Under the pieces are notes generated by a model that saw only the letters and a program-made list of their open reading frames with translations, ran no database searches and was not told the DNA's origin. The position numbers and the translations under genes are program-made. From UHGV virus genome UHGV-0778877: DNA of 14,363 nucleotides. One strand, 5' to 3'. This document shows, piece after piece, positions 8,367 to 11,263 of this stretch. Each line of letters opens with the position of its first letter. The stretch's first letter is position 1. The DNA comes from a virus.

Positions 8367-9866
8367 TTAAGTTCTCCGTGCGATGGGCCTGATTGGGGCT
8401 GGTATCTTTTTCTCTTTTGGTTTTTTGATGTCGCGCATCATTTTGGCGAAGCGGCGCATCATGTATGCATAGCGAACGGCTGAGAGAACATCGTCGTTAA
8501 GCTTGACGATCTTCCCGTTTTCATCACGGTGATAGAGGCGGAACTCCTCAAAGAATGGCTCACAGGTGTTGAATACTTTGAAGCGACCATCGAGCATCAT
8601 GTCGCGCAATTCAGTGATGCCAGGCTCCACAGCATTACCGCCATCAGGCCATGTCGCATGCTCCTGCAACATCATAAAACCAGCGTCGGCATACTGCCCT
8701 TTGAGCTGCTCACCGCCGCCCTTCTCATGCTGGTTTCCGTCATGAGGCCATGCGGTTGGCACTTTATGCGCCCATGATTTAACGGCTCCCCACGCCTGAA
8801 CGGCTGTTTTTTCTTTCGCCTTCCACACGCGTGAAACGTAGATTGTGTCTGCGTCCTTATCCCACCAAAGCTGAACCTGCGCCTGTGGGTGATCCCATCC
8901 GAAATCCATCCCGCCAATTACGTAGAAGTGATCAGGACACTCGAACGGCTGACACTTAATCGTCTCTTCCGGTATCTGGAAGATTCGACCACTACCCATC
9001 GTAGGAATACCGCGAGCACGCGCCTCTCTCTCATGCTCTGGATAGGATGCGATGATTTGCTCTTTCTGCTCGTCGGTATAGTGCTCAGCGTCATAGATGG
9101 TCATGTTGACCACTTTCTGCGACTTGCTGGGATTCTTCAGGAACTTGGTAACAACGTCAGACATCCCCATCAGCGGGGTAAACGTCAGAATTGAGAATTG
9201 CCCGTATTTGTTGGTACGGGTAAGACCTTCGCCATAAATGCTGTATGGTGGCTCTTCGTCAAACCACACGCCGTGGATTGTGTCACCCTGCCAGCGAGCA
9301 CGGCCTTGCGAGTATGGTTTGAAGTAGCAGATTGAAATGCCATCTTCAACGCCATCAGCCGTGTGATGCTTAACCAGAAGATGATCAACAAGGTTCGGAA
9401 AGAAAGGAGACTTCTTCCAGCTAATGATGTCTTCTTTCGGTATGGAACCGTAGCCAGGCTCATCATTCTCTTCGATACGACCGCACAGGATGCGTTGAGT
9501 CGTTTTGGTTACAGTCTCGTTTGTCTCGCCACCAATCCAGAAGACAACAGGCTCATAGAAACGCTTACCTTTCCACTCCCCACCATATTTACCATCAGCA
9601 GGATATCCTTTTGTGCCCGGATAACGCCCGGTAAGGTGAAATGCGACTTCAGCAGCACCAGTAAATGACTTACCAAGCTGGTTACCAGCCATAAAACAGC
9701 GCTCTGGATAGTCATGCCCGGCGTCGATGAACTCACGCTGTTTGCTGTATGGCGTAAATTCATATAGCAGGTGTGTGTTCCGGTAGTTCTCTTCTTCTTC
9801 GAGTAGCTCGAGCAATTCGATTTGCTCTTCGTCGCTCAGGTTATCAAGAATCGCGTCCAGTTCCAC
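8367..9866 (-). CDS. terL: Terminase large subunit, P22 gp2-like, 499 aa
   Basis: 499-aa ORF with ATPase and nuclease character, located between small terminase and portal. The first codon at 9866 is GTG, not ATG (read from sequence), with AAGGAG about 10 nt upstream; no in-frame ATG lies nearby. It overlaps the terS 3' end by 23 nt. Confidence 0.9.
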
Positions 9867-10338
9867 GGTTGAATAGCTCCTTGATACGAGAGCGCCGCTT
9901 ATCGCGATCTCCCTTATCAGGTGTCACGTCTTCAACTTGCGACTGCTCTTTGAGGCCCAAATCACGGGCGATGATGTTAGCGTTGAGAAGGTCAGCGGCT
10001 GCGCCAGAGAATTTCTGGTCGTAGATGACCTGCTCTGCTCGCGTAACGACTTCAGATAAATCTTCTCTCAGGCGATATGTGCGCCATGTTTCAAGCGTCA
10101 CATCAATGAACAGAGTGAGGCCTGTAATAGTCATCGCTCGCATCTTGGCGATAGGCTCTTGTATCACTTCACCCTGATACGAGAACGCCTTCATCTCCCA
10201 TAGCGGGTTAGCTTCTACCCACTCGAAGTATTCACAACAAGCAGCCCACAGCGCCTCAGGCGATTCGAATTTAGGATTTCGCCCATGACTACTGCGGGCC
10301 TCCCAAAATCGGTTGCCCTTTGGTGCTGCCATATTCAT
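9844..10338 (-). CDS. terS: Terminase small subunit, P22 gp3-like (164 aa from the ATG at 10338; 162 aa from the ATG at 10332)
   Basis: [52 protein letters not shown]..., recognisable as P22 gp3; two in-frame ATGs 6 nt apart; it contains the pac-like sequence listed below. Confidence 0.9.
10044..10065 (-). other. Candidate headful packaging initiation site (pac), P22-type, inside terS
   Basis: The minus-strand sequence GAAGATTTATCTGAAGTCGTTA encodes EDLSEVV within terS, the codon context in which the 22-bp P22 pac site lies; it matches or nearly matches the P22 pac sequence as I recall it from memory (not checked). Confidence 0.45.
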
Positions 10339-10355: not shown

Positions 10356-10535
10356 TCAGGCTGATGACTCTTTCGCGCCTTCAATCAATGACTGCTTCAG
10401 CAATTCGAGTGTGCCAATCGCCTCACATAAACTGATTTCACCATCGTAATCATGAATGACGCTTTCCAGCCGCTCGTATAGCTCTTGAGTAATTGGGAAT
10501 TTCTTCTCCTTACCCAAATTGATTACGCGGCTCAC
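10356..10535 (-). CDS. Unlisted small ORF, 59 aa, GTG start, tightly coupled to the upstream 80-aa ORF (alternatively a frameshifted continuation of it)
   Basis: Hand translation of the minus strand: GGAG, then 6 nt, then GTG at 10535, one nucleotide after the upstream TGA; it reads VSRVINLGKEKKFPITQELYERLESVIHDYDGEISLCEAIGTLELLKQSLIEGAKESSA, then TGA. It is below the apparent 60-aa cut-off of the ORF track. This frame is open for about 8 codons upstream of the GTG, inside the 80-aa ORF. Confidence 0.4.
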   Translation of the reverse strand: MSRVINLGKEKKFPITQELYERLESVIHDYDGEISLCEAIGTLELLKQSLIEGAKESSA

Positions 10536-10536
10536 A

Positions 10537-10779
10537 TCATGCTCCGGTGGTGAACAGGTCTAACGCTTCCTTCGATTTACGCACCGCTTCGAATGTGCGG
10601 ATCGTGATATCCGAATTAGCGCCGCCTGACTGGAAGTGAATTTTGAATAGCTCAAGCTTCAACTCGTCAGTACCAATGAACTGAAATGCTTCTTCTGCGG
10701 CTGCGTTCTGGTTCATGACCAGCTTGTAAATCTCTAACTGGAATTTCTGTTCTTCAGTCATGGGAATAATCTCTGCCAT
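10537..10779 (-). CDS. Hypothetical protein, 80 aa
   Basis: ATG at 10779 with GGAG about 7 nt upstream; no family recognised; sits between the gp49/gp66-like gene and terS in the late operon. Confidence 0.6.
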   Translation of the reverse strand: MAEIIPMTEEQKFQLEIYKLVMNQNAAAEEAFQFIGTDELKLELFKIHFQSGGANSDITIRTFEAVRKSKEALDLFTTGA

Positions 10780-10800
10780 TGTTGGCTCCGTTTATCCGTT

Positions 10801-10829
10801 AAAAGGGATATCAGTTAAGTTATCCCGTG
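10801..10829 (-). terminator. Weak hairpin plus short T-run between the gp49/gp66-like gene and the 80-aa ORF
   Basis: Inverted repeat GGGATA (10805-10810) and TATCCC (10821-10826) with a 10-nt loop; on the minus strand it is followed by TTTT. The stem is short and AT-rich, so any terminator function would be weak. Confidence 0.2.
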
Positions 10830-10882
10830 TAGGGTATAAGCCATTATCAAAGCCACTCTGTAGGGAATGGCTTTTGTAATAA

Positions 10883-11263
10883 CTACTGTTCGCTTAGCTT
10901 CTGCTTCAGCAAGTAACCTTCGAGCATCCAGATTTTGTTTACAGCATTTTGCCGGGCAATCTTCCGACCAATTTCTGCATCAAAGTTTTCCGGGCTCGCA
11001 CAGGCACTCTCTCCGGTGACGGTGAAGCCATTCTTCAGCACCAGTACGCAGAAAGTGAGCAACTTCAATGGTGATAAATCACGATCGCCTTCTTCTGGTT
11101 TTTCCCTGCCACAATATTCGTTGCTGGAAATGGCACCATTTCGTCCATCACAAGCAGTAAAGTAATGCTCGCTTTTAATCACGTCTTCGATGTGCTGCGG
11201 GGTGATTCGCGGTGCCGTTTTGCCTTTCTCAACGATTTCTTTTTCGATTTGCTGGTCGTTCAT
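10883..11263 (-). CDS. Phage gp49/Sf6 gp66-family protein (function unknown), 126 aa
   Basis: 126-aa ORF containing the stretch ...LKNGFTVTGESACASPENFDAEIGRKIARQNAVNKIW..., which I recognise as characteristic of the N4 gp49 / Sf6 gp66 family; placement just upstream of the terminase genes fits. Weak Shine-Dalgarno. Confidence 0.6.
   Translation of the reverse strand: MNDQQIEKEIVEKGKTAPRITPQHIEDVIKSEHYFTACDGRNGAISSNEYCGREKPEEGDRDLSPLKLLTFCVLVLKNGFTVTGESACASPENFDAEIGRKIARQNAVNKIWMLEGYLLKQKLSEQ

What the first reader, a model, noticed from the sequence alone, without database searches (positions are those of the whole stretch)
10356..10779. Two tightly coupled small ORFs of unknown function (80 aa, plus an unlisted 59 aa with GTG start) just upstream of terS
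The 80-aa ORF has a good SD and ATG. One nucleotide after its TGA, a GTG with GGAG 6 nt upstream opens a 59-aa frame, just under the ORF-track size cut-off, encoding a helical-looking peptide. I recognise neither protein. The 59-aa frame is also open for about 8 codons upstream of the GTG, inside the 80-aa ORF, so a frameshifted single gene of about 140 aa is a second possibility. This slot between lysis and terminase genes is a frequent site for accessory cargo in lambdoid phages.
Basis: partly seen in the sequence, partly recalled or inferred. Interest (0 to 1): 0.6.

Follow-up and report, generated by a model that had tools for sequence, protein, structure and literature searches.

The report
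Two known small P22-type phage genes
The two small reading frames are real, separate and already catalogued phage genes (P22 orf80 and orf59c) of untested function, sitting in a cargo slot before the DNA-packaging genes; the only new lead is that the 59-residue protein is predicted to fold like a small DNA-binding regulator.

Summary
The stop and the GTG start are 1 nt apart, and GGAG lies 6 nt upstream of the GTG.

They are not new. They correspond to P22 orf80/orf59c, Sf6 genes 67/68 and HK620 hkbM/hkbN at 95-96% nucleotide identity. The 80-aa protein is Pfam DUF2560; the 59-aa protein is PHROG 3546.

Both are under purifying selection (median dN/dS 0.06 and 0.13).

The single frameshifted-gene idea is rejected:
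- Mosaic breakpoints fall exactly at the gene borders.
- Relatives carry DUF2560 without orf59c.
- Relatives carry a 95-aa gene between the two, with orf59c using its own ATG.
- One relative has the reversed order, and one has orf59c alone.
- Only one fused 140-aa product turned up.

Orf59c is not needed by the terminase, because phages with a 100% identical terS lack it.

DUF2560 stays unassigned. It holds the lysis-to-terminase slot across many lambdoid phages. Relatives carry anti-defence-type genes nearby.

Verdict: ordinary, already annotated accessory genes.

The parts
10537..10779 (-). 80-aa gene, P22 orf80 / Sf6 gene 67 / HK620 hkbM; DUF2560 family. The product is a small acidic protein (pI 4.7) predicted to have four helices.
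   Evidence: PF10834 scores 143 bits against a cut-off of 25. phrog_571. 95-97% nucleotide identity to P22-like phages. Median dN/dS 0.06. pI. The AF2 model has pLDDT of only 55.6, with four helices.
10786..10789 (-). GGAG Shine-Dalgarno for the 80-aa gene, 6 nt before its ATG
   Evidence: Read directly from the sequence.
10542..10545 (-). GGAG inside the last codons of the DUF2560 gene, serving as Shine-Dalgarno for whichever gene follows (here the GTG of orf59c, 6 nt downstream)
   Evidence: Sequence. The same GGAGCAT(G/A)A junction precedes orf59c, terS, a 22-aa mini-ORF, an epsilon34 gp70-like gene or a 134-aa gene in the 77 usable related loci.
10356..10535 (-). 59-aa gene, P22 orf59c / Sf6 gene 68 / HK620 hkbN. 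It has a GTG start and a predicted ribbon-helix-helix-like fold: basic N-terminal arm and strand, then two acidic helices.
9844..10338 (-). terS (P22 gp3 type), the gene immediately downstream. This is context, not part of the pair.
   Evidence: PF16677 E 3.6e-33 and phrog_606. 100% identical to the terS of phage APC_JM3.2, which lacks orf59c.
10799..10884 (-). Intergenic leader upstream of the DUF2560 gene. It has a strong hairpin (10884-10839) and a second short hairpin followed by UUUU (10826-10799), which looks like a terminator.
   Evidence: RNA fold -31.9 kcal/mol, z -3.56, with 0 of 200 shuffles folding as well. Inverted repeat I3.

Best explanation
Shown: these are two independent protein-coding genes of the late operon of a P22-like (Lederbergvirus) phage or prophage. 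The order is Q antiterminator, holin, endolysin, Rz/Rz1, variable cargo, DUF2560 gene, orf59c, terS, terL, portal.

Inferred: the DUF2560 gene ends in a conserved ...ACC GGA GCA TGA/TAA. Its embedded GGAG would hand ribosomes to whatever gene follows. Here that gene is orf59c, started at a GTG 1 nt after the stop.

Shown: orf59c is an optional cassette. It is present in roughly a third to 40% of phages whose DUF2560 is nearly identical, and it is cleanly absent from others.

Inferred, moderate confidence: the Orf59c product is a ribbon-helix-helix protein. It would dimerise through its beta-strand. The invariant basic arm and strand (GKEKKFP) and the conserved YDGEISLCEA turn at the start of helix B would bind a specific DNA site, or possibly a partner protein. 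That would make it a small late-expressed regulator or adaptor rather than a structural or packaging component.

Unknown: its target. DUF2560 is a positionally conserved, non-essential late protein whose biochemical activity could not be inferred.

The confidence of 0.55 is for the whole statement including the RHH mechanism. The part 'two separate, real, already annotated accessory genes, not a frameshifted gene and not required by terS' I hold at about 0.95.
For: Identity with known genes: (P22 orf80/orf59c, Sf6 67/68, HK620 hkbM/hkbN).

Operon context.

Coding status: dN/dS. An ATG-started orf59c follows a 95-aa insert in 16 of 80 loci.

Conserved junction and coupling.

Optional nature:
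- A clean deletion leaves identical flanks (L011).
- terS 100% identical to the window's occurs without orf59c in L003, L077 and L086.
- orf59c sits upstream of P22-type terS in 38 loci and of Sf6-type or 146-aa-type terS in about 39 loci.

RHH fold:
- AF2 pLDDT 83.6.
- Invariant residues cluster in the arm, the strand and the inter-helix turn.
- The N-terminus is basic.

Non-essentiality of orf80 in P22: bioRxiv 10.1101/2023.08.15.553423 and PMC11016777.
Against: The RHH assignment rests on one model and one method.
- Foldseek against PDB and BFVD found nothing significant.
- Pfam, NCBIfam, PADLOC and a PDB profile search gave no RHH match.
- Four of the five AF2 models scored only 62-73 pLDDT.
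- The protein is acidic overall (pI 4.8), unlike Arc (pI about 10 for a sequence recalled from memory).
- The inter-helix turn is G-E-I-S, one residue longer than the usual G-x-S/T/N.
- No candidate operator was found. Only short two-copy repeats occur nearby, and nothing in the flanks co-varies with the presence of orf59c.
- No expression or binding data exist.
Confidence: 0.55

Rival explanations
1. Orf59c, alone or with DUF2560, is counter-defence cargo. One version is an orphan RHH antitoxin mimic that neutralises a host toxin-antitoxin or abortive-infection toxin late in infection. Another is a small acidic decoy.
Confidence: 0.15
2. Orf59c is a DNA-packaging accessory. As an RHH protein it would bind near pac and help the small terminase recognise or bend the DNA, much as TraY and TraM help relaxases.
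Against: Phages with a terS 100% identical to the window's lack orf59c. Nearly identical orf59c precedes at least two unrelated terS families with different pac specificities (PF16677 and PF20901). In some loci it is separated from terS by other genes.
Confidence: 0.08
3. DUF2560 and Orf59c form an obligate two-protein module: an effector plus an RHH partner, organised like a toxin-antitoxin pair.
For: The two genes are adjacent in 64 of 80 orf59c loci, always with a 1-nt gap. They remain adjacent, in reversed order and with an ATGA overlap, in Pectobacterium. DUF2560 alone gives a poor AF2 model, as some obligate complex subunits do.
Against: DUF2560 occurs without orf59c in most phages, including all the distant siphovirus homologues checked. 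orf59c occurs without DUF2560 in Enterobacter. Their divergence is discordant: DUF2560 97.5% with orf59c 66% in L005, and DUF2560 45% with orf59c 78% in Hafnia. No toxin family matches. No promoter-like site on their strand was found near them, so they would be expressed only as late genes.
Confidence: 0.07
4. This is one gene of about 140 aa, either interrupted by a frameshift (a pseudogene) or decoded by programmed +1 frameshifting.
For: The 59-aa frame is open for 8 codons upstream of the GTG. One fused 140-aa protein exists in the database (P0092).
Against: P0092 is a single sequence on a single contig, against thousands of separate copies. Mosaic breakpoints fall exactly at the 80-aa stop. 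The genes occur apart, with a 95-aa gene between them, or in reversed order. Each frame is separately under purifying selection. I saw no recognisable slippery site in GGA GCA TGA T (by eye).
Confidence: 0.01

Closest known systems
Phage P22 orf80 and orf59c (also Sf6 genes 67/68 and HK620 hkbM/hkbN)
   Same: Same two genes in the same order, with the same 1-nt stop/start junction and the same position before terS. Nucleotide identity is 95-96%.
   Different: The flanks are mosaic. Upstream of 10793 the window follows Sf6 (a gp66-family gene) rather than the P22 pid/orf25 region. Downstream, the terS is P22-type.
Pfam DUF2560 (PF10834) / PHROG 571
   Same: Full-length match at 143 bits. It holds the same slot between the lysis cassette and the terminase genes as distant members in Klebsiella, E. 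coli and Proteus phages.
   Different: None; it is a typical member. The family has no assigned function.
Ribbon-helix-helix (CopG/Arc/MetJ) superfamily, including P22 Arc and Mnt and type II antitoxins such as TacA, ParD and MazE
   Same: The predicted strand-helix-helix topology superposes at 1.2-2.3 A over 43-50 residues. It has a basic N-terminal arm, a conserved Gly-containing turn before helix B, and a minimal size like Arc or CopG.
   Different: There is no detectable sequence-profile relationship. The body is acidic (pI 4.8). The model has an extra N-terminal strand, the turn is one residue longer, and there is an invariant Cys. The gene lies in a late operon with no promoter or operator of its own.

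Membership tests
DUF2560 (PF10834) | Whole-protein HMM score above Pfam's gathering cut-off | tested here: met
   143.3 bits against a cut-off of 25, covering profile positions 1-72 of 72.
P22 Orf59c family (PHROG 3546) | Full-length HMM match and synteny with P22 orf59c | tested here: met
   E 5.7e-43 over 59 of 59 positions. The DNA matches the annotated orf59c of NC_002371 and BK000583 at 95.8% identity.
Ribbon-helix-helix superfamily | Beta-alpha-alpha fold that superposes on solved RHH domains | tested here: met
Ribbon-helix-helix superfamily | Sequence-profile match to an RHH family (for example Pfam RHH_1 or Arc) | tested here: not met
   No RHH family appeared at E up to 10 for any of 28 family members. 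There were no RHH chains in the PDB profile search.
Ribbon-helix-helix superfamily | G-x-S/T/N turn that caps helix B and contacts DNA phosphate | tested here: inconclusive
   The conserved turn is Y30-D31-G32-E-I-S35, with Y30, D31 and G32 invariant and S35 sometimes replaced by Gly. It is one residue longer than the canonical motif.
Ribbon-helix-helix superfamily | Intertwined homodimer and sequence-specific DNA binding through the paired strands | not testable with these tools
No convincing operator repeat was found.
Type II toxin-antitoxin pair (RHH antitoxin plus toxin) | Obligate adjacent toxin gene of a known family, an own promoter, and a toxin-binding extension on the antitoxin | tested here: not met
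   DUF2560 matches no toxin or defence model. Each gene occurs without the other. No promoter-like site on their strand. Helix B runs almost to the C-terminus, leaving no extension.
Programmed-frameshift or frameshift-disrupted single gene | A fused ORF in relatives, or a slippery site at the junction | tested here: not met
   One fused singleton against thousands of split copies. I saw no recognisable slippery site by eye. The genes are separable.
Terminase accessory factor | Co-inheritance with one terminase or pac type, and a requirement for that terS | tested here: not met
   An identical terS occurs without orf59c. orf59c occurs with both PF16677 and PF20901 terS types.

The most novel reading that the evidence does not exclude
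Orf59c is a late-expressed RHH protein that, possibly together with DUF2560, acts as a counter-defence or host-takeover factor. It could be an antitoxin mimic, or a repressor of a host or prophage defence locus. That would give a function to a gene pair left unassigned in P22, Sf6 and HK620 since their genomes were annotated.
Probability: 0.15. Interest if true: 0.55.

Novelty: already known. Interest (0 to 1): 0.22.

Why it matters
P22, Sf6 and HK620 are model phages, yet orf80 (DUF2560) and orf59c have no assigned function. In complete E. coli genomes, 911 of 5426 carry at least part of this region and 143 carry both genes.

The practical gains here are modest:
- The two-gene annotation, including the GTG start, is secure.
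- A role in packaging is unlikely.
- The RHH prediction gives a concrete, cheap experiment: DNA-binding and deletion tests.

If the slot proves to be a counter-defence hotspot, these genes become candidates. Nothing here shows that yet.

Tried and rejected
- **Sequence searches for Orf59c.** Pfam, NCBIfam, PADLOC and PDB searches gave only noise: CATASP, bHLH_SAC51, JetB and PcrA, with E from 0.01 to 0.5.
- **Foldseek on the Orf59c model.** Nothing below E = 1 against PDB or BFVD.
- **DUF2560 structure.** The AF2 model has pLDDT 55.6 and was not used for fold search. PDB profile searches with both the close and the diverse DUF2560 alignments were empty.
- **DUF2560 exhaustive search.** A HMMER search of 1.84 billion representatives found only standalone proteins of about 75-100 aa. 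The longer hits I read (P0161, P0181) are frameshift or assembly chimeras; the 1293-aa and 502-aa multi-stretch hits (P0173, P0201) were not examined.
- **Orf59c profile search.** The family did not extend beyond Enterobacterales.
- **Locus scans that failed.** The genome-contig scans returned almost nothing. The afdb_sample library was unavailable.
- **Literature.** Nothing turned up for orf59c or hkbN, or for an RHH gene upstream of terS.
- **Operator search.** Only short two-copy repeats, compatible with chance.
- **Rfam.** No RNA family in the window.

Full report
**Observation**

The window's late region is encoded on the minus strand.
- The 80-aa ORF runs from ATG 10779 to TGA 10539-10537. 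Its GGAG lies 6 nt upstream.
- One nucleotide later, a GTG at 10535 opens the 59-aa ORF, which stops at 10358-10356.
- GGAG at 10545-10542, inside the last codons of the 80-aa gene, sits 6 nt before that GTG.
- The 59-aa frame is open for 8 codons upstream of the GTG.
- The terS gene begins 17-23 nt after the 59-aa stop.

**Context**

The region is the late operon of a P22-like phage. In order it carries the Q antiterminator, holin, endolysin, Rz/Rz1, a Gp49/Sf6-gp66 family gene, the two small ORFs, terS (P22 gp3 type), terL, the P22-type portal and the coat gene.

**Identity**

The pair is not unknown. Megablast against phage records finds it at 95-96% identity. It is annotated as P22 orf80 plus orf59c, Sf6 gene 67 plus 68, and HK620 hkbM plus hkbN.
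- The 80-aa protein is Pfam DUF2560 (143 bits) and PHROG 571.
- The 59-aa protein is PHROG 3546 (E 5.7e-43) and has no Pfam family.

In complete E. coli genomes, 911 of 5426 carry at least part of the region and 143 carry both genes. PGAP annotates them as "DUF2560 family protein" and "hypothetical protein".

Literature held here reports that P22 remains viable when orf25, pid and orf80 are replaced by a cassette. [quoted passage not shown] I found no study of orf59c.

**Are both real genes?**

Yes.
- Over 118 distinct DUF2560 alleles and 60 distinct orf59c alleles from related loci, median pairwise dN/dS is 0.06 and 0.13.
- In 16 of 80 viral contigs that carry orf59c, a 95-aa gene lies between DUF2560 and orf59c. 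In the one examined (L129), orf59c starts with its own ATG at exactly the residue position of the window's GTG.
- The Hafnia, Citrobacter, Enterobacter and Pectobacterium homologues are called with a start at the same residue position; the Hafnia and Pectobacterium DNA shows an ATG there.

**One frameshifted gene?**

No.
- Only one fused 140-aa protein was found (P0092, one contig). It has the signature of a 1-nt deletion. The separate proteins form clusters with hundreds to over a thousand members.
- Mosaic breakpoints fall exactly at gene borders. Many P22-like phages (epsilon34, SEN22, IME10, APC_JM3.2 and others) share only the 241-245 nt of the DUF2560 gene, at 95-97% identity, then diverge at its stop.
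- An alignment shows a clean presence/absence polymorphism of the orf59c coding sequence between identical flanks.
- I saw no recognisable slippery site at GGA GCA TGA T (by eye).

**Anatomy of the slot**

I classified the 77 usable loci, all but one with DUF2560 at least 97.5% identical to the window's. The gene after DUF2560 always starts a few nucleotides after its stop (1-3 nt in the junctions examined) and uses the embedded GGAG. That gene is one of the following:
- orf59c, in about 34 loci;
- terS itself, in about 31 loci, of two types, including the clean orf59c-less variant;
- a 22-aa mini-ORF followed by terS, in 16 loci;
- an epsilon34 gp70-like HExxH protein, in 3 loci;
- a 134-aa gene that the epsilon34 record annotates as head decoration, in 2 loci.

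The conserved 3' end of the DUF2560 gene therefore acts as a universal translational-coupling and recombination junction. Even the Hafnia allele, only 45% identical in protein, keeps those last 35 nt nearly unchanged.

Distant DUF2560 homologues came from an exhaustive profile search (69 representatives, nearly all standalone proteins of about 75-100 aa). In Klebsiella and E. coli siphoviruses and a bat-faeces siphovirus they lie in the same place, after the lysis cassette and before unrelated terminase modules.

**Relation to the terminase**

orf59c is not tied to a terS type.
- It precedes P22-type terS in 38 loci and Sf6-type or 146-aa-type terS in about 39 loci.
- In some Salmonella prophages, 47-aa and 134-aa genes separate it from terS.
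- Phage APC_JM3.2 and two viral contigs carry a terS 100% identical to the window's but no orf59c.

A required packaging role is therefore very unlikely.

**Relation between the two genes**

The evidence is mixed.
- For a link: they are adjacent with a 1-nt gap in 64 of 80 orf59c loci. In a Pectobacterium prophage the order is reversed, orf59c then DUF2560, with an ATGA overlap.
- Against an obligate pair: DUF2560 is alone in most phages. An Enterobacter prophage has orf59c without any DUF2560 within 4 kb. Their divergences are discordant: 97.5% against 66% in L005, and 45% against 78% in Hafnia.

**What the proteins might be**

For Orf59c, AlphaFold2 with a 28-sequence alignment gave a best model at pLDDT 83.6. 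The other four models scored 62-73. The model has a short N-terminal strand, a strand at residues 12-16, and helices at 17-29 and 36-58.

The sequence fits the RHH pattern in several ways:
- An invariant basic arm and strand (G8, E10, K11 and P14 within GKEKKFP).
- Hydrophobic core positions in both helices.
- A strongly conserved turn, YDGEISLCEA, where RHH proteins place their G-x-S/T/N phosphate-contacting cap.
- Residues 1-16 are basic (pI 10.3) while the helical body is acidic (pI 4.2).

The caveats are real:
- Foldseek found nothing in PDB or BFVD.
- No sequence profile links the family to RHH families.
- The protein is acidic overall.
- No operator candidate emerged.

I put the RHH fold at roughly 55-60% and DNA binding as its function at roughly 35-40%.

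DUF2560 gave a poor model (pLDDT 55.6, four helices) and no remote hits. I cannot infer its activity. What is shown is strong purifying selection, positional conservation across lambdoid phages, non-essentiality in P22, and a 3' end that carries the ribosome-binding site for the next gene.

**Neighbourhood hint**

In relatives, the stretch between the lysis cassette and terS carries anti-defence-type genes. An Acb2/Tad1-hairpin protein lies immediately upstream of DUF2560 in vB_EcoS-733R5. A Tad2-like protein lies immediately upstream of the orf59c homologue in Pectobacterium. Nucleases, Rha and KilA-N proteins and HExxH proteins also occur there.

It keeps a counter-defence role open, at about 15%, but it is only association.

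**Verdict**

The frameshift alternative is refuted. The genes are already annotated conserved hypotheticals of model phages. The only new element is a moderately supported RHH-fold prediction for Orf59c, plus the comparative evidence that it is an optional cassette independent of the terminase. Interest is low to modest.

Noticed in passing
window 10799-10884 (-): The leader between the gp66-family gene and the DUF2560 gene folds into a strong hairpin (10884-10839) and a second short hairpin followed by UUUU. The fold has z -3.56, with 0 of 200 shuffles folding as well. It may be a read-through terminator or an RNA-stability element inside the late operon. Direct repeats AT(T/A)CCCTACA lie 31 nt apart and flank the 3' arm of the first hairpin.
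   Followed up: partly
window about 10793 and 10333: The window is mosaic at gene borders. Homology to P22 begins only 14 nt before the DUF2560 ATG, and Sf6 homology covers the upstream gp66-like gene. Sf6 and HK620 homology ends within the first few codons of terS, which is P22-type.
   Followed up: partly
L011:3205-3290, also about 11 other IMG/VR loci: A clean orf59c-less variant has DUF2560 followed 33 nt later by terS between flanks identical to the window's. A 6-codon mini-ORF (MMLNLK) is left at the junction.
   Followed up: yes
L003:2247-2315, also 15 other loci: In many P22-like phages a conserved 22-aa mini-ORF (MATQGFDNPSKFRDEWDKQAEGK) occupies the orf59c position. It is coupled to DUF2560 and precedes either P22-type or Sf6-type terS.
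   Followed up: no
L004 (HK97) 1201-1282; also HK022, HK75, mEp phages: HK97-like siphoviruses keep only the first 82 nt (28 codons) of the DUF2560 gene, at 96-98% identity, just before the HNH and cos region. It looks like a recombination scar and corresponds to the short family phrog_23132.
   Followed up: partly
L171:2370-2663 (Escherichia phage vB_EcoS-733R5) and L175:3605-3877 (Pectobacterium prophage): Anti-defence-type genes lie immediately upstream of DUF2560 or orf59c homologues: an Acb2/Tad1 hairpin domain (E 1.1e-17) and a Tad2-like protein (PF11195).
   Followed up: partly
L001:1747-2136 (epsilon34 gp70), L176:3610-3984: A protein of about 125-129 aa with an HECAH motif can follow DUF2560 or precede orf59c. 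Its SprT-like Pfam hit is weak (E 0.078). A phage of the Flyfo group carries a PF18894 putative phage metallopeptidase at the same position.
   Followed up: no
L129:2704-2991 and 15 other loci: A 95-aa gene with no Pfam match (MTEQEMPRYQCHKKV...) is inserted between DUF2560 and orf59c in 16 of 80 orf59c loci.
   Followed up: no
window 10883-11263 (-): A 126-aa N4 Gp49 / Sf6 gp66 family protein (PF13876, E 2.3e-35) of unknown function lies directly upstream. It occupies the position taken by Rha, KilA-N, a GIY-YIG nuclease or the pid locus in other P22-like phages.
   Followed up: no
Orf59c residue 37 (window about 10425-10427): A single cysteine, in the LCEA motif at the start of helix B, is invariant across 16 diverse family members down to 61% identity (one 98%-identical variant, P0028, has Arg there). 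This is unusual for a small cytoplasmic helical protein.
   Followed up: no
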